The position numbers and the translations under genes were made by a program. A stretch of DNA of 64,000 bases from Flavobacteriaceae bacterium (GTDB taxonomy: Bacteria; Bacteroidota; Bacteroidia; Flavobacteriales; Flavobacteriaceae). Location: NCBI GenBank assembly GCA_038143735.1, contig JAYQML010000002.1, forward strand, positions 224,992 through 288,991, read 5' to 3'. Below the pieces are notes generated by a model that was not told the origin of the DNA, made no database searches, and saw nothing but the letters and a program-made list of their open reading frames with translations. Positions 7,887-57,723 of this stretch are shown one piece after another (the stretch's first letter is position 1; the number at the start of each line of letters is the position of its first letter).

Positions 7887-9002
7887 TTAATCATTCAACA
7901 TAACCGGCATAACCAACATAGTCACTTGTTCACCCTCTTCGATACCATCGAGGGGAGTAATGATACCTGCTCTGTTGGGCATGGACATGGCTATAGAGAT
8001 TTCTTCGGCACCCAGATTATTGAGCATTTCGATTAAAAAGCGGGAATTGAATCCAATTTGTAGATCATCTCCTGCATAACTACAGCTTAAGCGTTCTTCT
8101 GCTTTGTTACTAAAGTCGTAGTCTTCGGCCGATATATTCAATTCTGCTCCTGCAATTTTTAAACGTATTTGGTGGGTAGTCTTGTTAGAGAAAATACTCA
8201 CCCGACGCAGGGAGTTAAGCAATGTTTCTCTGTGTATTGTGAGCACATTTGGGTTTTCCTTAGGAATAACCGCTTCGTAATTAGGATATTTTCCTTCAAT
8301 TAGGCGACAACTAAGTGTGGTTGATCCGAAAGAAAACTGCGCATTGGTTTCGTTGTATTCCACATTGATGTCTTCTTCACTCCCCTGTAAGATCCCTTTT
8401 AGTATTTGGAGGGCTTTTTTGGGCATTATAAACGCTGCTGTCCCCGAGGCGGAAACATCCGATCGGGTATATTTTACAAGTTTGTGTGCGTCTGTGGCTA
8501 CAAAGGTGAGCCCTTCGGATGAAAACTGAAAAAAGACTCCACTCATTACTGGACGAAGATCATCGTTCCCAGAAGCAAAAAGGGTAGTGTTGATGGCATT
8601 GGCCAGGGTGTCTCCCATGATTATTGTTTTGCTTGGGTCTTTAATATGAACGGCCTTAGGAAACTCATCACCAGCCAAATAGGCAAGGCTGTATTTACCA
8701 TTGTTTGCGCTGATTTCGATGGTATTGTTTTCTGCAGTGAAAGTAAGCGGTTGCTCGGGGAAAGTTTTTAGCGTATCTAGCAACAAGCGTGCTGGTACAG
8801 CAATGTTTCCGGTGGAGTTAGATTCTACAGTGATGCTTGCAGACATGCTCGTTTCTAGGTCGGAGGCTGTAATGGTGAGTCTATCCTGATGGAGTTCGAA
8901 TAAGAAATTATCGAGTATAGGTAGTGTGTTTGAAGCGTTTATCACTCCTCCCAACACTTGTAATTGTTTTAATAATTGACTACTTGAGACAATGAATTTC
9001 AT
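7887..9002 (-). CDS. dnaN: DNA polymerase III beta clamp
   Basis: MKFIVSS...LPILDNFLF, ASDLE, VATDAHKL, GFNSRFL, MLVMPV. Confidence 0.95.
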   Translation of the reverse strand: MKFIVSSSQLLKQLQVLGGVINASNTLPILDNFLFELHQDRLTITASDLETSMSASITVESNSTGNIAVPARLLLDTLKTFPEQPLTFTAENNTIEISANNGKYSLAYLAGDEFPKAVHIKDPSKTIIMGDTLANAINTTLFASGNDDLRPVMSGVFFQFSSEGLTFVATDAHKLVKYTRSDVSASGTAAFIMPKKALQILKGILQGSEEDINVEYNETNAQFSFGSTTLSCRLIEGKYPNYEAVIPKENPNVLTIHRETLLNSLRRVSIFSNKTTHQIRLKIAGAELNISAEDYDFSNKAEERLSCSYAGDDLQIGFNSRFLIEMLNNLGAEEISIAMSMPNRAGIITPLDGIEEGEQVTMLVMPVMLND

Positions 9003-46953: not shown

Positions 46954-47080
46954 GGCTAGTGCTTTTAGATAAAGTTAGGGCTTTCTAAACCCGTTTTACC
47001 CTATCAATAGGGAGATTGTTCACAGGGTTTTTAACAAAATTGTGTATATTGAAAGTCCTGAATCTTAAATTTTGCCCCTT

Positions 47081-47395
47081 ATGTCGACCTACTTTCTCCA
47101 TTGTTACATTGCTGGATTACAATACTACGAAGTCCTAGAAGTTTGGAAAAAACTCGAAATAGGACAGTTGTTAGACCTATTGCCTGAACCCGATAATCGC
47201 TATGACGAAAACGCAGTTGTCGTTGCTTATAAAGGGAAAAAGCTAGGCTATCTCCCCAGAAGTCAAAACAAAGTCGTTTCGCAAATACTTCGTGCCGGGC
47301 ACGATGCCTATGAAGCCCGTATCCAAAGCCTGTACAGCCAAAATCCCATGTATGAACGGATTGAGATTTGTTTGAGGGTGAAGAGAGTAAAATAA
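47081..47395 (+). CDS. Stand-alone HIRAN domain protein
   Basis: IAGLQYY, LLPEPDNRYDENAVVV, KLGYLPRSQN. Confidence 0.88.
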   Translation: MSTYFLHCYIAGLQYYEVLEVWKKLEIGQLLDLLPEPDNRYDENAVVVAYKGKKLGYLPRSQNKVVSQILRAGHDAYEARIQSLYSQNPMYERIEICLRVKRVK

Positions 47396-47477
47396 AAAAA
47401 AAAGACCACGGGTTAGTCGCAGTCTTTAAGAAATAATTCTACGGCTAGTATAGCCTTGTTGTAATTAGAGTTTCAAA
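47395..47477 (-). ncRNA. tracrRNA
   Basis: Anti-repeat TTTGAAACTCTAATTACAAC (47477-47458), nexus-like AAGGCTATACTAGCCGT, terminator AAGACTGCG..CGTGGTCTT plus long T-run; TATATTTG box at 47487-47480. Confidence 0.88.
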
Positions 47478-47496
47478 TTCAAATATACATAAAAAA

Positions 47497-50400
47497 ATGA
47501 AAATACTAGGGTTAGATATTGGAAGTTCATCTTTAGGATGGTTTATCAGAGAAAATAATTCGATAATAAAATATGGAGTTATTACATTTAAAAGTGGGAT
47601 GAAAAAGGGTAAGAGTGGTGGATATTCTTCACCAACTAGAGAAAGACGAGAGGACAGATTGCCTAGAAACTTGAAAAGATCTAGGAAATTCAGAAAATGG
47701 AAATTACTTGATTTACTAATAAAAATTGGGATGGTTCCACTTTCAATGAAAGAACTAGATGGCTGGAGAAAATATAAAAAAGGCCAAAATAGACTGTTTC
47801 CTGAGAGCAAAAATTTTAAATCTTGGTTAGCTTGTGATTTTAGATACCAAGATGGCAAAAAATATAAAAATCCATATCAAATTAGAGTAAATGGGCTAGA
47901 TCAAAAATTAAGTCCTCATGAATTTGGAAGAGCACTTTATCATCTTGTTCAAAGGAGAGGTTACAAGGATATTGGACAAAAAGATAACGAAACAAAAAAG
48001 CAAATTGAAAGACGTGAAGATACAGGTTTTGGGAAGCGTTAAAAAAATACAGAACTGTAGGCGAAACATTATTAAAGGATTACATTAAAAATAAAAAGAG
48101 AGCAAGAAATGAATATCCATATCGCAATGAATACTTGAATGAACTGGAAGCACTTTGTGAAGCACAGGGATATGATGTTAAAAAAGAAAACAATAAATAC
48201 ACCAATTCATTTATTAAACAGTTACACAAATTCATAATCTGGGAAAAGACCCTTGAAATTATCAATGGGGAAATATTGGCTATTGCACACTTGAGGAAAA
48301 GAGCAGAAGATGTCCTGTTTCTCACCCACTATTTGAGATTTTTAGGGCCTTTAGCTTTATCAATACAATTAGGATAGTTGAAAACAATGAAAAGATTACT
48401 TTAAGTGAATCAACTAGAGGACTATTATTCTTGTTTTTTCTGACCAAACAAAAGAATTTCAAATTTGAAGAAATAAGAAATAAAATAGATAAGATTACAA
48501 AAAAGAAAAACAAGTATAACTACCCCATAAACAAAAAAGGTGAGTACTATACTAATATTGCAGGAATGCCCTTCTGTAAAAATCTGATTAAGATTTTTGG
48601 AGAAGAAGTTATTGAACCTTTAAAAGATTTATACAAATTTGATTCTAATGATAAGAGATATGAACACAAAATAGCTGGCAAATATAGCATCTATGATTTT
48701 TGGCATTTTTTACATGATTTTGAAGATGATTTTTTGAAAAGTTTTACCTCTGATAAATTCGGGATTTCTGCAAAACAAATTGAAAACTATAGAATTAGTC
48801 TACCTAATAGTTATTCAAATCTAAGTATAAAGGCATTACGTAAAATCATCCCATTTCTAATGGAGGGATTCTTATATAATGAAGCCGTCTTGTTGGCAAA
48901 AATACCTGAATTTATTGGATTGAATTGGGAAATGAAAAAGCCATTAATCTATGAGAAATTAAAAAACGCTAAGGATAAGCATTCATTTATAGGCTTAGTA
49001 AATCGGATTACCAACAAACTAATTGAAGAATATAAGTCACTCGAGTATAAAAATAAATATGCTCATAATGATTTTATGTATAAGTTGACAGATTATGATT
49101 TCGAGGATATTGAAAAAATGTGCGAAAAATACTTTGGTAAAAATAGTTGGTTAGATTATGACCAAAAAGATGAACTATTAAAAGCCGTTAGTTTAGAATA
49201 TCAAAAATTTTTCCAAGACAAAAAACGTGACTACAGAAAGCTTCAAAAACTAAGTGATATTTTTAAAAGTGAGTTAACAAGTTTAGGATTAACTATTGGA
49301 AAACTTTATCATCATTCGGATTTGGATAATAAATATGGTAAATGTAAAGAGTTTCTGGACAAAGAAACAGGACAGGTGTTTGAGATTTTACCATCCGCTA
49401 TCATTCCAAGCATTAAGAATCCGATGTTTAATAAATCAATGTCAATTTTACGAAAGTTAGTGAATGAATTAATTGTTCAAGAATGGATTAATGAAGAAAC
49501 AAAAGTAATAATAGAAATACCAAGAGGACAGATTGATGACAATAATGAAAGAGAGGCCTACATACGTTACACTAATGAAAGAAATTCTATCAGAGAAAAG
49601 TACAGGAATTTCTACTAGAGTATCGTAATAATCATAATACAAATATAAATATTGAAGAAAAACTTTCTGTTTTTGAACTTTGGAATGAACAAGCTATAAA
49701 AACAAAGGAGGATCAATTAACCCCAGACGAGATATTAAAACTTCAAGATGCCACTGAACGTTACAATTTATGGATGGAACAGGAGGCACAATGCATTATA
49801 CTGGGAAGATGATAAGTATTTCTCAATTATTTTCTAATGATATTGACATAGAACATACCATTCCAAGAAGCATTCTTCCAGATAATTTGGCAAATAAAAC
49901 CGTATGTTTTAAAAGATACAATAACGACATTAAGAATTACCGTAAATCTGAGTGTCCAAATTTTAGTAAAGATGATGGCGGGTTGGGGAAGAATTGACAA
50001 ACGACTAGAAAAATGGAAAGAAAAGAGAGACAATTTTGAAGCTCTTTATGAGCAAAGGAAAAAAGCAAGAGGAAAAGAAGATGAAAACAATAAGAATAAA
50101 CGTATAAGAGAAAGGATTTATTACAAACGAAAGTTCAATTATTGGAAAAAAAAAATTGAGCGATTTGAAGCAACAGAAGTTAATGAAAGTTGGGCTAGAA
50201 GACAACTTGTTGATACTCAAATGACCAGTAAGTATGCTCGAGAATTGGAAGAAAACGAAGTTTCAAAAGGTAGAAGTTGTTGATGCATCAATTAATGTTG
50301 CCTTTAGAAAAATGTATGGTTTTCAAAGTGCTAAAGAAGATAAAAATCGAGATAAACACTGGCATCACGTAAAGGACGCTGCAGTATTATCAATGTTGCC

Positions 50401-51750
50401 AGTAAATGGAAGTACCAGATTAAAGTTGATACGGCAAATGTATAAGAGAATAGAAAGGGTAAAGGAAGTTAAGGATTAACCCTTTTGATTTTGAAGATTT
50501 TAATGCACAAAAAATAATCTCTGAGATTGATGCTAATACTTTGGTTCAAAAAATTATTTCAAAAGACACCATTACACAACAAACATTTAAAAATATTAGG
50601 AAGCGAAACAAGATTCAATATCTCAAACGTAATGGTGAGTATGTAATGGATCAAAATCAAAACAAAATACCTCTAAAAGCTAAAGGGGATACAATTAGAG
50701 GGTCCATTTTTAAAGATACATTTATCGGAAAAATTCGAGAAGTTAAAAGAGACGAAAATGGTAAACCTATAAGAGATAAAAACAAAAAATTGATTTTTAA
50801 AGAGGGAAATGATGAATTTTCTTGGGTAGTTCGTAAAGAGCTTAAGGATGTAATCAATAACAGCCAAAGAATTGTTGATCCTGAAATTAAGAAAATTATT
50901 GAGAGAGATAAACTAAATGCAAAAGATCAACAAGGAAAACCAATACGCAGGGTACGTATTAAAGTCAAGCAAGGTAAAGAAGTAAAAAAGAGAATTAACT
51001 ATAAATCAAAACTTGAATATAAAAATCAATATTATGCCGAATCTGGTTCTATCCCACATGCATTATTACTAGAAGAAAGTGGCATGGGGATTATGTTACA
51101 GAATGGATCCCAATTCATGCCTTTCAAATAGCGCAGATATATAGAAAATATAAGGATTTTAATGAACATTTGTTTTTAAAAATGTTCGAATTAAATCATG
51201 AAAAAATCACGAACCGAAACTTTTAAAATTGGACAAAAAGTTCTAGTGCTAAATGATGACACAGAATATGAAAAAAGGGAAAATGTTGATTTTCAGAAAA
51301 ATCGACTTTTCAAAATAACCCAATTTTATGAAGAAAGGGTATATCTTAAGATCATTTAATTGCTTTAGATGAAAGCAAAATAAAAAAATTTGTTAAAGAA
51401 AGACAAGACTCATTGTTAAGAGAATTTGAAGAAACATATGGTATTCCAGAAATCAAAGAGGATACTTCAATTGAAAATATAAGTGAACGTGAAAAAGATT
51501 TTGATGATCGAAAATATTCATTTGATAGTTTTGAAAGATTTAGACTTCAAAGACTTTTAGATAAAATAGGTTTAGAGAAAACTAGGGAAATAAAAAAGTT
51601 CTAGGCAAATATAAAACTCAATCAAGTTTGATTGAAGTTGAGGGAGAAACACCTTTACTAAAAGTGAATGCAAATAAAATCAATTTTCTTATTGAAAATT
51701 ATGACTTCAAATTTTCAATACTTGGAGACCTAACATTTATTAATGATTAA
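47497..51750 (+). CDS. cas9: Type II-C Cas9 (about 1400 aa), broken by roughly ten frameshifts (errors or pseudogene)
   Basis: RuvC-I ILGLDIGSSSLGW, Arg-rich bridge helix, ALYHLVQRRGY, RuvC-II IIEIPR, HNH DIEHTIPRS..NKTVC, RuvC-III HWHHVKDA, C-terminus YDFKFSILGDL. Confidence 0.92.
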
Positions 51751-52630
51751 ACGTACTCTTTATTTTGGCAATGAAGCCTACCTCAGTACCCAAAAAGCAA
51801 CATTTGGTGGTGCGTTATCCAAAGTTGGAGGAGGTAAAAACCGTACCCATTGAAGATATTGGAATAGTACTACTGGACCATTATCGGTTAACCTTAACGT
51901 CAGCCTTACTCAACGCCTTGCTAGGCAACAATGTGGCTGTGATTAGTTGCGATGCCCAGCATTTGCCCTTGGGCATGTTTTTAAACCTGAACGGACATAC
52001 ATTACAACAAGAACATTTTGCGCACCAAATTAGGGTAACCAAGCCAAGAAAGACCGCTTATGGAAACAGTTGATTCAAGCAAAGATCACCAATCAAGCTG
52101 CGCTTTTATTGCGGAATGATCATCTTTCCCCCAAATTAAACCGTTTAAGTAAAATGGTTAAAAATGGGGATCCAGACAATTATGAAGCCCAAGCAGCCTC
52201 CTATTATTGGAAACATTTGTTTCATGACTTTCACTTCATACGGGAACGTTTTGGCGCAGCCCCCAATGGCTTATTAAATTACGGTTATACTATTTTACGC
52301 GGGGTGGTCGCCAGAGCTTTGGTCGGTTCGGGTCTATTGCCCACCTTGGGGATACACCATCACAACAAATACAACGCCTATTGTTTGGCCGATGATGTGA
52401 TGGAACCCTACCGTCCCTTTGTCGATGGACTGGTGGTATCGTTGGTGGAGCAGGGGAGGAAGGAACTCGATCAAGAAAGCAAGCAGTGGTTATTGAAAAT
52501 TCCTGTTTTGGATGTTCAAATCAACGGCCAAAAGAGTCCATTGCTACTGGCCGTACAACAAACCACCGCCAGTTTACAACAGTGTTATGCAGGGAAACGT
52601 AAGGGCCTTAAACTCCCGTCCTTTGTTTGA
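51743..52630 (+). CDS. cas1: Type II Cas1, frameshifted twice
   Basis: MIKRTLYFGN start, VPIEDIG, NGLLNYGYTILR, GIHHHNKYNAYCLADDVMEPYRP. Confidence 0.93.
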
Positions 52631-52957
52631 CCGATTTAATCAATACAGAATCATGTGGATCTTGGTCTTTTTTGATTTACCCACCGAAACCAAACGCGAT
52701 AAACGCCATTACCGCCAATTTGTAGATCGTTTGGAAAAAGATGGTTTTAATCGTTTTCAATGGAGTATCTTTTTACGGCATTGCCCAAGTCGGGAAAATA
52801 TGGAGGTACACATCAAACGAGTTAAAGGCTTTTTACCGCCCAAAGGACATATCGCTATTTTACATATTACTGACAAACAGTTTGGGATGATGGAACTTTT
52901 TTGTCTCAAGAAAAGGAAGATTTACCTGAAATGCCCCAGCAGCTAGAACTTTTTTAA
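52623..52957 (+). CDS. cas2: Cas2, frameshifted near 3' end
   Basis: RIMWILVFFDLPT, DGFNRFQWSIFLRHC, ITDKQFG, PQQLELF stop. Confidence 0.93.
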
Positions 52958-52981: not shown

Positions 52982-53007
52982 AAAAACAGCACCCTAGCAG
53001 GGTGCTG
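52982..53007 (-). terminator. Terminator for the minus-strand pre-crRNA
   Basis: Perfect 9-bp stem CAGCACCCT-AGC-AGGGTGCTG; the A-run on + gives a U-tail on the minus strand; abuts repeat 1. Confidence 0.8.
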
Positions 53008-55524
53008 CTGTACTAATATACATTTTGAAATCTAATTACAACAATGTCCCAGCTCTTGGTGCTATCGGCGTAGCTGTACTATGGGGTTGTTTTAATTACT
53101 GAGGCTCTGGTGGCTGTACTTTCGTCAAAACGCTGTACTAATATACATTTTGAAATCTAATTACAACTAATTCATTGTGGTATTGATTGATGCGCCAGTT
53201 GCTGTACTAATATACATTTTGAAATCTAATTACAACTCCCAAGGTCCTTCTTTTTACTTAAAAGCTGTACTAATATACATTTTGAAATCTAATTACAACT
53301 GATGTATCAAAGCATAAATTTGAACAGCAGCTGTACTAATATACATTTTGAAATCTAATTACAACAGTAGCCCCGCTATCTATTAGATCGTCAATGCTGT
53401 ACTAATATACATTTTGAAATCTAATTACAACCTACCAAAAAGTAACCCAGATTAGTCCCAGCTGTACTAATATACATTTTGAAATCTAATTACAACACAA
53501 TTTTTGATAAATTCAATTAATTTGCTGTACTAATATACATTTTGAAATCTAATTACAACCTCAGAGAGCTTCCTTGTTTAAGATATGATTGCTGTACTAA
53601 TATACATTTTGAAATCTAATTACAACTTATTTTCGTTGGTAAATCCAACCAAATCCAGCTGTACTAATATACATTTTGAAATCTAATTACAACATCGTAC
53701 TAATTATTTTGGCAACTTGATCTAGGATTATTGACTAAGCTGTACTAATATACATTTTGAAATCTAATTACAACAAGAATCAGCGGCGCTTGAATCTGGC
53801 TGGCTGTACTAATATCATTTTGAAATCTAATTACTATCTTGCTGTACTAATATACATTTTGAAATCTAATTACAACAGCGCAAGTTGACTTACAGAAAGA
53901 AGCACAGCTGTACTAATATACATTTTGAAATCTAATTACAACTGTAGAAGTTGAATTTATAAAAGGTAGGTTGCTGTACTAATATACATTTTGAAATCTA
54001 ATTACAACTCATGACAGCTTTCTTTTGAGTTTAGACGCGCTGTACTAATATACATTTTGAAATCTAATTACAACACGAATCTCAAGGCGTGCACTACTAT
54101 TGCGGCTGTACTAATATACATTTTGAAATCTAATTACAACTGAAGGAAAACAGAGACCACATTATACATTGCTGTACTAATATACATTTTGAAATCTAAT
54201 TACAACACATAATTGCAGCGTTGATAATTTCGCGGGGCTGTACTAATATACATTTTGAAATCTAATTACAACAACAGTGGAACGACATTTACAATTGACA
54301 ACGCTGTACTAATATACATTTTGAAATCTAATTACAACATTGCGAAGCGTCTACTAAAAGGCGTTAAAAGCTGTACTAATATACATTTTGAAATCTAATT
54401 ACAACTGGGACCACAAAGTCCAATTTTAAAAGACGGCTGTACTAATATACATTTTGAAATCTAATTACAACAGTAGCCCCGCTATCTATTAGATCGTCAA
54501 TGCTGTACTAATATACATTTTGAAATCTAATTACAACGCAACGTAGGGGAGATGCTTATTTTATGTTGCTGTACTAATATACATTTTGAAATCTAATTAC
54601 AACGGGAGAAAACCGTCCAGTCCAATTGATGGGCTGTACTAATATACATTTTGAAATCTAATTACAACTATAACCGCAACGGTGGTTGATTTCTACATGC
54701 TGTACTAATATACATTTTGAAATCTAATTACAACCTTTGAGTAGTCGTTGATAAATGGTCTCAAGCTGTACTAATATACATTTTGAAATCTAATTACAAC
54801 CAATTGTATCTAGCCAATTGGGTTTTTGGCGCTGTACTAATATACATTTTGAAATCTAATTACAACTCATTTCATCAAAGACATTGTGGGGATCGGCTGT
54901 ACTAATATACATTTTGAAATCTAATTACAACCATTAAATGTTACTTGCTCTAGTTGAGGGGCTGTACTAATATACATTTTGAAATCTAATTACAACATGC
55001 TCTATTACAGTATCTGTAGCCAATATGCTGTACTAATATACATTTTTAAAATCTAATTACAACTGCTGGAGTTAAAGTAACCAAACACGGCAAGCTGTAC
55101 TAATATACATTTTGAAATCTAATTACAACTCCGACGAGCGTTTAAAAACGGTAGTGGGCGCTGTACTAATATACATTTTGAAATCTAATTACAACTGACT
55201 TTAACCACTACCCTAGAGGGTAAAAGCTGTACTAATATACATTTTGAAATCTAATTACAACACATAATTGCAGCGTTGATAATTTCGCGGGGCTGTACTA
55301 ATATACATTTTGAAATCTAATTACAACTAAAGATCCGAAGACATCACACGCTCTTCGGCTGTACTAATATACATTTTGAAATCTAATTACAACCCTCTGT
55401 CTCTGGTTGCGTAATCAGAGATGGCTGTACTAATATACATTTTGAAATCTAATTACAACTAGCGGTATTGTGATAAAATTTATTTTGTGCTGTACTAATA
55501 TACATTTTGAAATCTAATTACAAC
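53007..55524 (-). CRISPR. Type II-C CRISPR array: 38 repeats of 36 nt (one degenerate, one 37-nt variant) plus two truncated copies; spacers mostly 30 nt
   Basis: Repeat GCTGTACTAATATACATTTTGAAATCTAATTACAAC on +; orientation inferred from the tracrRNA anti-repeat and the terminator. Confidence 0.98.
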
Positions 55525-55592
55525 ACAAGGTGCACAGCTCAGAAATGACTGTATTTCCACTTTTGGGGTTAAACACACCTGACGGCGAACTC

Positions 55593-55623
55593 ACCGCCCA
55601 ATTGTACAATTCGGGCGGTTTTT
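55593..55623 (+). terminator. Intrinsic terminator-like hairpin
   Basis: ACCGCCC-AATTGTACAATTC-GGGCGGT followed by T-run. Confidence 0.7.
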
Positions 55624-55662
55624 ATATCTTTGAATAGCCTTCAAATTCTAATATCATGAATA

Positions 55663-55851
55663 ATGCATTTAAATAACACCATGCCCAACCTCAACCTCCA
55701 ACGTAGAAATGAAGCCGTCCGGACGTATGTCAATCAACTGTCCTCTACTTACCCGCATTGGAAGTTTGCCTATATCATAGCCAGAAAAGCTTTTTTATCC
55801 CCGCACCATAGAGGCCATCCTCAAAGAGGAGGGCGTGTTCAAAATAAATAA
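55663..55851 (+). pseudogene. Remnant of a small phage-like HTH-type gene (Mu-like prophage type)
   Basis: RRNEAVRTYVNQLSSTYPHWK...FLSP then, in shifted frame, TIEAILKEEGV; TATCTTTG box at 55625; family call from memory only. Confidence 0.5.
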
Positions 55852-55931
55852 CCCTTAAATTTTGTACATATGCCTTCAAAAATTAAAATTCCGCATTTTA
55901 CCATAGAGGCCATCCTCAAAGAGGAGGGCGT
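55805..55931 (+). repeat. Exact 32-bp direct repeat
   Basis: ACCATAGAGGCCATCCTCAAAGAGGAGGGCGT at 55805-55836 and 55900-55931. Confidence 0.95.
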
Positions 55932-55980
55932 ATGTATGCAAAAGTTAAAAATAATTGATATCTTTGTACTATCTTTGTAC

Positions 55981-56042
55981 CGGGAAAGGCTACGGCTCGT
56001 CCCACCCCATTAAGCGGCTGGGTAATGCCGCTTATTTTTTTT
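55981..56042 (+). ncRNA. Candidate small RNA of about 60 nt
   Basis: Tandem TATCTTTGTAC boxes at 55959 and 55970; terminator TAAGCGGC-N8-GCCGCTTA plus T8. Confidence 0.4.
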
Positions 56043-56160
56043 CATAGCGTTGAGCCTTACCCTTATATATAATAATGATCTCTTTAAATGGGCTGCCTCC
56101 TCTGAGTTGAATTTGTCCTTTAATCATTTCTTTTAAACGGGTTAGATCAATATCTCGGAC
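56032..56160 (-). pseudogene. 3' fragment of a gene, truncated at the long repeat; possibly a MuF-type C-terminal nuclease domain
   Basis: Open frame VRDIDLTRLKEMIKGQIQLRGGSPFKEIIIIYKGKAQRYEKK-stop, ending in a terminator. Confidence 0.4.
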
Positions 56161-56162
56161 CA

Positions 56163-56476
56163 ATTGTGCTAAAATACAATTTATTCATGCGAGTTAATTG
56201 GATAAATTGGAATTCATTAGTCGGCTACGCCTCGTATGAAATGCTTTAGCATTCACGACTACTTATTTCTCATATAGCAAAGTAGGAGTAAAGCGAATCA
56301 CAACATCAACCCACAAGCAGTTATCATCAGCCCTGCTGTACTAAAATACAATTTATTCATGCGCGTCTATTTGATACATAAGAATTTATTAGTCGGCTTC
56401 GCCTCGTATGAAATGCTTTAGCATTCACGACTACTTATTTATCAAATAGCAAAATAGGAGTAAAGCGAATCATAGC
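56163..56476 (-). CRISPR. Mini-array of two 142-nt composite repeats with one 30-nt spacer
   Basis: Copies at 56163-56304 and 56335-56476 (17 mismatches by hand, no gaps); ends resemble the 36-nt repeat; spacer ATCAACCCACAAGCAGTTATCATCAGCCCT. Confidence 0.8.
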
Positions 56477-57723
56477 TTCTCTCAAAATCTAGTTAATAAA
56501 AAAACGGAGGGTGTGGTAGCGTTAGAAGATAAATTTTACGAAATTACAGATATAAACGCAACCAAATCTAACCTTAACATCCTATTAAATGAAAAAGAAA
56601 CTAACCGAAGAGGAAGCCAAGAAGTATCGGAAAGAGCTACTGGCCAAGCGGACAGCGCAGATTCAGGAAGAGGAAGTACGGAAAATACGACAACACCTGC
56701 TTCGGTACTTCCCGGAAATGCCAGAAATGACTTATCAGGAGTACCTGGAGTGGGAGAAAATTCACCTCCCCGCACAGGCGAAGAACAGACAGGAGGTGAA
56801 AGCGTTGAACGAGGAAGCCAACAGGAAGTACAGGGAACAGCACAAGCGGGAGTTGATCGAAGCCAACAAGATACGCGAGATGCGCAGGAAGAGGCGAGAG
56901 GGGCTGACTTAAATGACGATAATCCTTTTACAGAAGACGGTAATAATCAAGAGGTAGGCGAAGTACCGTTTCAGTTCGGTAACCGCAAAGAACGTTTTAG
57001 AGCAATCGACCCAAGCACTTATAAGAAGCTAATTAAAAGGCTTCAGACCGCCTTTCCAAATAGAAAGGTGTTTGTGGATGCCGATAAGATGAAACGTCGC
57101 CTAGAACGATTAGGCTACAATGTGCAGGCATTGTTTGGGAATGAGGTAATGGCGTTTAACCCTCAGACCAAGCGACTTCTTGAACGGGCTAAAAAATTAA
57201 ATCAACAAGGAAAAACGGCTAGGGAAACCAGAGAAGAGACCGGGTGGTTTATTGGGCTGGACGGCAATTGGAGGTATGCGATTGATGATTCAAATGCTAG
57301 GCTTTTGGAGGATGAAAAAAGAATTGCTAGTTTAGCAAAGAACAAAACAGTGGATACGGCAAAGCGTTATCCATTGAAAGGTGTACTTTCACACCTGAGC
57401 TAGAGCGGCTTTACCCCGAATTAGTAAGAAAAATAAATGTAAAGTTTTATGAAGGACCAAACAACAAAGGAGGGCATACTGAAAACCACTCCGACGGAAC
57501 CTACACCATCCGAATCAACAAAAACCTTCGAGAAGAGAATAGTGGACGACAATCCTTGGTGGTGGAGGCTAGAAAAACCCTACTCCACGAAATACAGCAT
57601 GTCATCCAAGGATTGGACAGAAGTGTTCGAGGAGTTAGACAAAATGACTTAGGGGGAACAAGTCAAAAAATTGTCTATGAACAGCTCAAAAAACGGTACA
57701 TTAAAGATTTATCATGCAGGTAG
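56477..57723 (+). pseudogene. Fragment of a phage-type large polyvalent protein (LPD23-like domain plus zincin motif), frameshifted near 57395
   Basis: LERAKKL..ETGWFIGLDGNWRYAIDDS, then HPELERLYPEL...TLLHEIQHVIQ (HEIQH at 57586-57600). Confidence 0.7.
56589..56912 (+). CDS. Nested out-of-frame ORF, 107-aa charged helical protein
   Basis: ATG in AT-rich context (TATTAAATG); natural-looking helical sequence; spans the low-complexity part of the host frame. Confidence 0.55.
   Translation: MKKKLTEEEAKKYRKELLAKRTAQIQEEEVRKIRQHLLRYFPEMPEMTYQEYLEWEKIHLPAQAKNRQEVKALNEEANRKYREQHKRELIEANKIREMRRKRREGLT

What the first reader, a model, noticed from the sequence alone, without database searches (positions are those of the whole stretch)
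56163..56476. CRISPR-like mini-array built from 142-nt composite repeats beside a type II-C Cas9 locus
Seen in sequence: two ungapped 142-nt copies (about 88% identical) are separated by exactly 30 nt, the modal spacer length of the neighbouring array, and lie in the same orientation as it. Joining the first 20 nt of copy 2 (GCTGTACTAAAATACAATTT) to the last 16 nt of copy 1 (TAAAGCGAATCACAAC) gives a 36-mer matching the array repeat at 30/36 positions. Each long repeat is therefore a CRISPR repeat with a 106-nt insert after position 20. Established: composite long repeats (a short repeat split by an insert) are reported for Bacteroidota type VI-B (Cas13b) arrays. I know of no such description for type II-C, and no cas13 gene is in this window. 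Inference: this may be a second guide-RNA class with a built-in scaffold, a relic of another system, or a small element that targets CRISPR repeats. Standard array finders would probably miss it because of repeat-length limits.
Basis: partly seen in the sequence, partly recalled or inferred. Interest (0 to 1): 0.92.

Follow-up and report, generated by a model that had tools for sequence, protein, structure and literature searches.

The report
Tiny mobile inserts inside Cas9 repeats
Two old CRISPR repeats beside a Cas9 locus each carry two back-to-back inserts of about 50 bases, at least one from a DNA element family scattered through Bacteroidota genomes that also makes up the unexplained 'long repeats' of Cas13b arrays; here they are likely parasitic insertions in a leftover array rather than a new guide RNA.

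Summary
Observation confirmed: two 142-nt copies (125/142 identical), 30 nt apart. Each is a 36-nt type II-C repeat carrying two inserts: A (51 nt) and B (55 nt, opposite orientation), either side of one retained central base. Other II-C arrays show A only, B only, or both at the same junction, at the oldest end. With the inserts removed, the copies match another repeat type (34 and 33 of 36) better than the neighbouring array (28 and 29). A congener has that type, with a different Cas9 and tracrRNA, at this same site. So the pair is most likely the orphaned old end of an array whose Cas9 module was swapped.

A belongs to a dispersed ~52-nt Bacteroidota hairpin element (intergenic sites, gene starts, tRNA-like genes, a group II intron). 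A motif from it retrieved four Cas13b arrays with long repeats, including Bergeyella zoohelcum. The likely reading is a tiny non-autonomous insertion element that hits T-runs; its mobiliser was not found. A built-in sgRNA scaffold is weakly supported. The spacer's phage match is inconclusive. My literature searches found neither type II-C long repeats nor this origin for the Cas13b ones.

The parts
56163..56304 (-). Composite repeat, copy 1 (downstream in crRNA sense): 5' repeat half 56290-56304, insert A 56239-56289, retained central base 56238, insert B 56183-56237, 3' repeat part 56163-56182
   Evidence: with inserts removed it matches the G886 repeat at 34/36, the neighbouring array at 28/36
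56305..56334 (-). 30-nt spacer between the composite repeats
   Evidence: 21-nt exact (24/30) match in 4 related viral contigs, host doubtful
56335..56476 (-). Composite repeat, copy 2 (5'-most, oldest 'extra' repeat): 5' half 56462-56476, A 56411-56461, central base 56410, B 56355-56409, 3' part 56335-56354
   Evidence: with inserts removed 33/36 to G886 repeat, 29/36 to neighbouring array
56239..56289 (-). Insert A, copy 1: divergent member of the dispersed ~52-nt hairpin element family (second copy 56411-56461)
   Evidence: top two genome-wide hits of a profile built from non-CRISPR copies, E 0.072 and 0.015; present alone in L034
56183..56237 (+). Insert B, copy 1: opposite orientation; first ~40 nt family-like, different terminal hairpin (second copy 56355-56409)
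   Evidence: alignment and profile; present alone in G886
53007..55524 (-). Neighbouring type II-C array, 36-nt repeat of a different type
52986..53010 (-). Terminator-like hairpin at the cas2-proximal (newest) array end, conserved in G014 and G886
   Evidence: seen in sequence; DNA match
47380..47492 (-). tracrRNA candidate cognate to the neighbouring array, not to the composite repeats
   Evidence: (z -3.7)
47497..51543 (+). cas9 in several frameshifted pieces, about 24% identical to the G014/G886 Cas9; end coordinate approximate
51746..52957 (+). cas1 (frameshifted) and cas2, about 75% DNA identity to G014 and G886
55525..56162 (.). 638-nt interval separating the present array from the relic pair; holds a short ORF remnant and a 32-nt duplication
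   Evidence: origin not established

Best explanation
The two 142-nt units are old type II-C CRISPR repeats, each split by two ~50-nt inserts that likely arrived as independent insertions of a small non-autonomous Bacteroidota DNA element, and the pair is likely the orphaned oldest end of an array whose Cas9, tracrRNA and repeat type were later replaced. Shown: the modular anatomy; A-only, B-only and double forms; filled and empty versions of one site; family copies outside CRISPR; the same family in Cas13b long repeats; conserved flanks and cas1-cas2 with unrelated cas9 and tracrRNA. Inferred mechanism: a trans-acting enzyme inserts the element 3' of a T-run, preferring C or G next, with no clear target duplication. 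The near-palindromic centre of this repeat offers one such site per strand, hence the back-to-back pair. New repeats are copied from the clean cas2-proximal repeat, so inserts accumulate at the old end. There they are tolerated: the first 15 nt and last 20 nt of the repeat stay intact, and the 5'-most repeat has no spacer to serve. My best guess for the enzyme is an HUH (IS200/IS605- or RAYT-like) single-strand transposase; this rests on recalled family features, and no such gene was found. In this genome the pair is predicted to yield little or no functional crRNA, because it pairs poorly with the resident tracrRNA.
For: Modularity: A only in L034 (84 nt) and a degenerate solo in G495; B only in G886 beside an intact 1430-aa Cas9 (92 nt); both in G014. 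Two Logan contigs read as tandem B-only and tandem A-only units with other ~30-nt spacers (inferred from joint lengths, depth 5.8 and 2). Family outside CRISPR: 9 of 251 order genomes match an A-derived motif, reversed control 0; 7 of the 8 outside G000 are non-CRISPR. 23 of 29 GTDB loci lack an array. 53 non-redundant non-CRISPR copies lie in 37 held loci; the base after the closing T-run is C 27, G 13, A 4 of 44. A filled/empty paralogous pair lies outside CRISPR in G315. Cas13b link: 6 of the 29 loci (5 genomes) are VI-B-type arrays, Cas13b confirmed in 4 of 4 scanned; a profile from 18 non-CRISPR copies scores those inserts 15-36 bits, most above 26. In the B. zoohelcum array 14 of 28 repeats are long; from the ninth repeat on, 5 of the 6 short ones have lost the T-run (Fisher p 4e-4, boundary chosen after looking). 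Relic: (synteny, Cas9 about 24%, no cognate tracrRNA). Predicted binding to the resident tracrRNA is -6.6 and -2.9 kcal/mol against -18.9 for the array repeat.
Against: No mobiliser found: 54 of 58 flanking ORFs scanned show no transposase or recombinase family. The first profile scored window A at noise level (8 bits, E 8.2) and missed B. The second finds A (E 0.015, 0.072), but 11 of its 32 training copies came from loci first found with the window sequence; B scores weakly (E 3.6 in G000, reversed-control best 1.8; E 0.007 for G886 in a four-locus search, model positions 4-43 only). B's terminal hairpin was found only inside II-C repeats. G000 has no copy outside these repeats, and all 13 B. 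zoohelcum motif hits are in its array, so spread by repeat copying or gene conversion, or selection, is not excluded. The assembly has many frameshifts and is 89.6% complete.
Confidence: 0.68

Rival explanations
1. Domesticated insert: insertion is how they arose, but they are kept because they silence the extra (5'-most) repeat or old spacers by weakening tracrRNA pairing, limiting extraneous crRNA.
For: The long repeat is the 5'-most repeat in G014, G886 and L034. Predicted binding to the cognate tracrRNA falls from -14.0 to -5.1 (G886) and from -14.4 to -11.0 kcal/mol (G014). PMC12080349 (abstract, introduction, section 16 read) reports that II-C extra repeats are mutated in 60% of 357 systems and bind tracrRNA more weakly.
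Against: Neutral decay at the old end predicts the same position. The window, and by inference two Logan contigs, also have inserts in repeats that serve real spacers. In VI-B the long repeats work as well as the short ones (10.1101/092577, passages and section 7 read).
Confidence: 0.14
2. Functional long crRNA: as with Cas13b, the long repeat still gives an active guide. With its cognate tracrRNA the insert loops out above the lower stem and is trimmed by RNase III.
For: Repeat nt 1-15 are intact in copy 1; in the predicted minimum-energy complex with the G886 or G014 tracrRNA, 11 of its first 12 nt pair. Spacer length is exactly 30; possible protospacer.
Against: G000 has no cognate tracrRNA, so this could hold for G014- or G886-type systems but hardly here. 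The best relatives of the matched phage infect Pelagibacter and Gammaproteobacteria, and no other spacer matches it.
Confidence: 0.1
3. Built-in scaffold: B, read in crRNA sense, supplies an anti-repeat foot and a nexus-like hairpin, making spacer + long repeat a natural single-guide or decoy RNA, possibly for the orphan nuclease-dead Cas9 in this genome.
For: In G886 repeat nt 4-7 pair in cis with the start of B at p about 0.49, followed by a 3-bp hairpin. Similarity to the cognate tracrRNA segment: p 0.015 (G886) and 0.039 (G014) against shuffles. B's end was seen only in II-C repeats.
Against: Window copies score p 0.60 and 0.64; 8 of 32 non-CRISPR family copies score as high (best of five offsets). 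In the double form the repeat's 5' end does not pair with B's start. The test was devised after seeing the likeness. No Rfam hit; folding z only -0.2 to -1.6.
Confidence: 0.08

Closest known systems
Type VI-B (Cas13b) long direct repeats, Smargon et al., bioRxiv 10.1101/092577 (passages and section 7 read; supplements closed)
   Same: 36-nt repeat split by an intervening sequence, 30-nt spacers, clustered distal in the array; the intervening sequence is the same element family as A.
   Different: Here the system is type II-C; two opposed inserts give 142 nt, not 88; no cas13b was found; function is untested. The passages read give no origin for the insert.
Mutated 'extra' repeat of type II-C arrays, Feussner et al. 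2025, PMC12080349 (abstract, sections 4 and 16, term search)
   Same: Oldest, 5'-most repeat altered; weaker predicted tracrRNA pairing.
   Different: They describe point mutations, terminators and hairpins; 'insertion' occurs only in their cloning methods.
Non-autonomous IS200/IS605 derivatives (PATEs), REP/REPIN elements, Rickettsia palindromic elements (all recalled; one search gave listings only)
   Same: Small, non-coding, hairpin near one end, T-rich target, no evident duplication, head-to-head doublets, in-frame insertion at gene starts.
   Different: About 52 nt with one terminal hairpin; no linked TnpA or RAYT seen; no sequence comparison to these families was made.
Natural single-guide RNAs such as long-form tracrRNA (10.1101/2020.05.21.102756, search listing only)
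   Same: A cis repeat:anti-repeat-like hairpin can be drawn for the B-only form.
   Different: Likeness is not above family background; the sequence derives from an inserted element inside the array, not from the tracrRNA gene.

Membership tests
CRISPR repeat-spacer unit (type II-C) | Ends reconstitute a real 36-nt repeat | tested here: met
   34/36 and 33/36 to the G886 repeat
CRISPR repeat-spacer unit (type II-C) | Variable ~30-nt spacers next to homologous long repeats | tested here: met
   different 30-nt spacers in G014, L034, G886; two Logan contigs by inference
CRISPR repeat-spacer unit (type II-C) | Protospacer with PAM | tested here: inconclusive
   21-nt exact, 24/30, four related contigs; host likely not Bacteroidota; PAM unknown
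CRISPR repeat-spacer unit (type II-C) | Cognate tracrRNA in the same genome | tested here: not met
   genome 89.6% complete
Type VI-B long direct repeat | Short repeat split by an intervening element of this family | tested here: met
   (A moderately, B only its first ~40 nt)
Type VI-B long direct repeat | cas13b in the genome | tested here: not met
   no tblastn hit with B. zoohelcum Cas13b; family search blank but its controls did not ring
Type VI-B long direct repeat | Processed into an active long crRNA | not testable with these tools
   no RNA holder listed
Natural single-guide RNA | Cis repeat:anti-repeat duplex followed by nexus, above background | tested here: inconclusive
   weak in G886 and G014, absent in window copies, matched by non-CRISPR copies
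Non-autonomous insertion element | Filled and empty versions of one site; copies in unrelated contexts | tested here: met
IS200/IS605- or RAYT-mobilised element (features recalled) | Insertion 3' of a T-rich motif without target duplication | tested here: inconclusive
   T-run before, C or G after; the element itself ends in a T-run, so a 2-3 nt duplication cannot be excluded
IS200/IS605- or RAYT-mobilised element (features recalled) | Cognate HUH transposase flanked by or co-occurring with the element | tested here: inconclusive
   none among 54 nearest ORFs; genome-wide co-occurrence not tested

The most novel reading that the evidence does not exclude
An undescribed class of ~52-nt mobile DNA has been co-opted by CRISPR: its B form, inserted in a Cas9 repeat, supplies anti-repeat and nexus in cis and turns an old spacer into a tracrRNA-independent single-guide or decoy RNA, perhaps for the conserved nuclease-dead orphan Cas9 of this genus. 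The weaker half alone (a new tiny element class that explains Cas13b long repeats) I put at about 0.5.
Probability: 0.08. Interest if true: 0.9.

Novelty: new variant of a known kind. Interest (0 to 1): 0.62.

Why it matters
It extends composite long repeats from Cas13b to Cas9 arrays and offers a testable origin for the Cas13b long repeats described in 2016: insertions of a dispersed ~52-nt element, not a CRISPR invention. It points to a small Bacteroidota element family with an unknown mobiliser that also enters gene starts in frame, tRNA-like genes and a group II intron. In practice, array finders would likely cut such arrays short and lose their oldest spacers. The relic also records a Cas9/tracrRNA module swap at a fixed chromosomal site.

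Tried and rejected
Chance or assembly duplication: rejected; the copies differ at 17 positions and homologues exist. Rfam: no match at E up to 1. Unusually stable RNA fold: not supported. Exact-motif scans that were blank: viral contigs and GTDB. Plasmids blank. Cultured phages gave only chance-level hits. The G012 hit lies in a coding region and was dropped as chance; of 25 other genomes, one is full length (G014), five hold family copies, and the rest were dropped as chance after inspection. L061 and most viral hits look like chance. B-end motif outside CRISPR: hits at control level (11 other genomes against 13 control hits, with G886 the one real hit; 2 against 5). Repeat-type surveys found no further long repeats (3 of 33 and 3 of 66 genomes matched). 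No RNA holder listed. Earlier scan findings: none. Literature: searches showed no paper on II-C long repeats or on this element (search listings only; open-access library; PMC5006608 term passages concern 47-48-nt repeats). bioRxiv supplements were closed and may bear on the Cas13b repeats. How often II-C arrays across Flavobacteriaceae carry the insert remains unmeasured.

Full report
Observation. The two copies, their 88% identity, the 30-nt interval and the 30/36 match are as reported; there is no third copy in the assembly. The array, tracrRNA candidate and a terminator-like hairpin next to cas2 place transcription on the minus strand, with the oldest end away from cas2. This agrees with the II-C layout in PMC12080349. 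The pair lies 638 nt beyond the old end of the present array.

Anatomy. A search of 61 related genomes gave one true homologue, G014. There a single 142-nt repeat is the 5'-most repeat of a II-C array, 30 nt from the first short repeat. A metagenome locus (two overlapping contigs) has an 84-nt version with only the first insert. G886, from another family, has a 92-nt version with only the second insert, in an intact cas9-cas1-cas2 locus. The 106 nt is therefore A (51 nt) plus B (55 nt, reversed) either side of one retained repeat base. Two low-depth Logan contigs have joints whose lengths fit tandem B-only and tandem A-only repeats with other spacers; their middle letters were not shown, so this is inference, and no record spans both window copies.

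Relic status. With the inserts removed, the copies match the G886 repeat at 34 and 33 of 36, the G014 repeat at 33 and 31, and the neighbouring array at 28 and 29. Window and G014 share the upstream genes and cas1-cas2 at about 75% DNA identity, but their Cas9s are about 24% identical and the G886-type tracrRNA has no match in G000. Predicted binding to the resident tracrRNA is -6.6 and -2.9 kcal/mol against -18.9 for the array repeat. I infer a swap of cas9, tracrRNA and repeat type that left the old end behind. The window's cas9 and cas1 are in pieces, as are nearby housekeeping genes that are intact in G014, so assembly error is likely and the state of cas9 is unknown.

What the inserts are. 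Weak hits in five Flavobacteriaceae genomes showed a ~52-nt element with a T-rich middle and a terminal hairpin. A motif from it hit 9 of 251 order genomes against 0 for the reversed control, mostly outside CRISPR. A GTDB-wide scan for the motif behind a repeat-like start returned 29 loci: 23 without an array and 6 VI-B-type arrays from 5 genomes, among them B. zoohelcum ATCC 43767, with Cas13b confirmed in the four scanned. A profile from 18 non-CRISPR copies scores those Cas13b inserts at 15-36 bits and the L034 insert at 17.9, so they are one family. The window's own A is a divergent member: at noise level with that profile (E 8.2), and the top two genome hits with an enlarged one (E 0.015 and 0.072), whose training set is partly circular. 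B aligns over its first ~40 nt only and has another end hairpin, which I found only in II-C repeats. Held loci contain 53 non-redundant copies outside arrays, including tandem copies and a filled/empty paralogous pair. One genome has 17 motif hits. The base after the element is C or G in 40 of 44 cases. In B. zoohelcum 14 of 28 repeats are long, with variant inserts, and 5 of 6 short repeats in that region lack the intact T-run (post hoc). That fits target loss protecting a repeat, or an excision footprint.

Mechanism. Shown: modular insertion at a fixed junction, family dispersal, identity with the Cas13b inserts, and mismatch with the resident system. Inferred: mobilisation in trans into T-runs, accumulation at the old end because new repeats are copied from the clean end, and tolerance because the repeat ends survive. 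An HUH-type transposase is my best guess from recalled family features; no candidate appeared among 54 of 58 nearest ORFs. Against pure repeated insertion: G000 and B. zoohelcum have no motif copies outside their arrays, so copying between repeats may contribute.

Rivals. Silencing of the extra repeat fits the position and the weaker tracrRNA binding but is not separable from neutral decay. A functional long crRNA is plausible where the cognate tracrRNA exists, as long Cas13b guides are active. A built-in scaffold is suggested by the B-only fold in G886 (p 0.015 against shuffles), but the window copies give p about 0.6 and 8 of 32 non-CRISPR copies score as well.

Spacer. The 3' 21 nt match four related viral contigs exactly, 24/30 overall. 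No other spacer matches them, the other half finds nothing, and the phage's terminase is closest to Pelagibacter and gammaproteobacterial phages. By my rough estimate (collection size not given) a chance 21-mer hit has a probability of up to a few percent. Inconclusive.

Novelty. Composite repeats are known in VI-B. Eight searches of the open library (listings only) showed no II-C case and no description of the element or of this origin; subscription papers and bioRxiv supplements were not seen. How common such inserts are in II-C arrays was not measured; the scan was strict and covered mainly one orientation. Verdict: a real feature and a new variant of a known kind; locally most likely a relic, but a useful lead to an apparently undescribed element family. 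Interest 0.62.

Noticed in passing
G000:C4:105894-109262, minus strand (L156:2895-6263), outside the window: A second, intact 1122-aa Cas9 whose RuvC-I, HNH and RuvC-III catalytic motifs are replaced (alignment to G886 Cas9; motif positions recalled). No cas1, cas2 or array nearby; a tracrRNA-like sequence lies just upstream on the other strand. Near-full-length orthologues (49-78% identity) occur in 9 of 32 other genus genomes, partial hits in 7 more. Candidate exapted nuclease-dead Cas9 regulator; one literature search was blank.
   Followed up: partly
L006/L032 (G266:C1, about 510400-513400): A dense cluster of tRNA-like genes, several interrupted by the same ~52-nt element in T-loop-like positions.
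   Followed up: partly
L047, L060, L068, L073 (near position 8000); L036, L037 (near 1500): The element sits at gene starts. In L060 and L068 an ORF reads through it in frame, extending the N-terminus, like recalled Rickettsia palindromic elements.
   Followed up: partly
L049:7166-8054: Three element copies flank a group II intron reverse transcriptase fragment.
   Followed up: no
L054:7814-7975; L094; L100: Arenibacter latericius carries head-to-tail tandems of a further end-variant of the element, opposite a standard copy.
   Followed up: no
window 56513-57717: Fragmented LPD23-domain gene (large polyvalent protein associated) and an overlapping 107-aa ORF directly beyond the relic pair, suggesting a mobile-element remnant.
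   Followed up: no
window 47072-47395: A HIRAN-domain gene lies just upstream of tracrRNA and cas9; its DNA is matched in G014 and partly in G886 despite the Cas9 swap.
   Followed up: no
window 53366-53395 and 54472-54501; 54207-54236 and 55262-55291; 53043-53131: Two spacers occur twice in the main array, and the cas2-proximal end holds degenerate partial repeats; possibly assembly error.
   Followed up: no
L127 (G024:C59, about 49800-49950): Two degenerate repeats of the long-repeat type, without cas genes, near the same his-operon-linked site: a further relic of this array.
   Followed up: no
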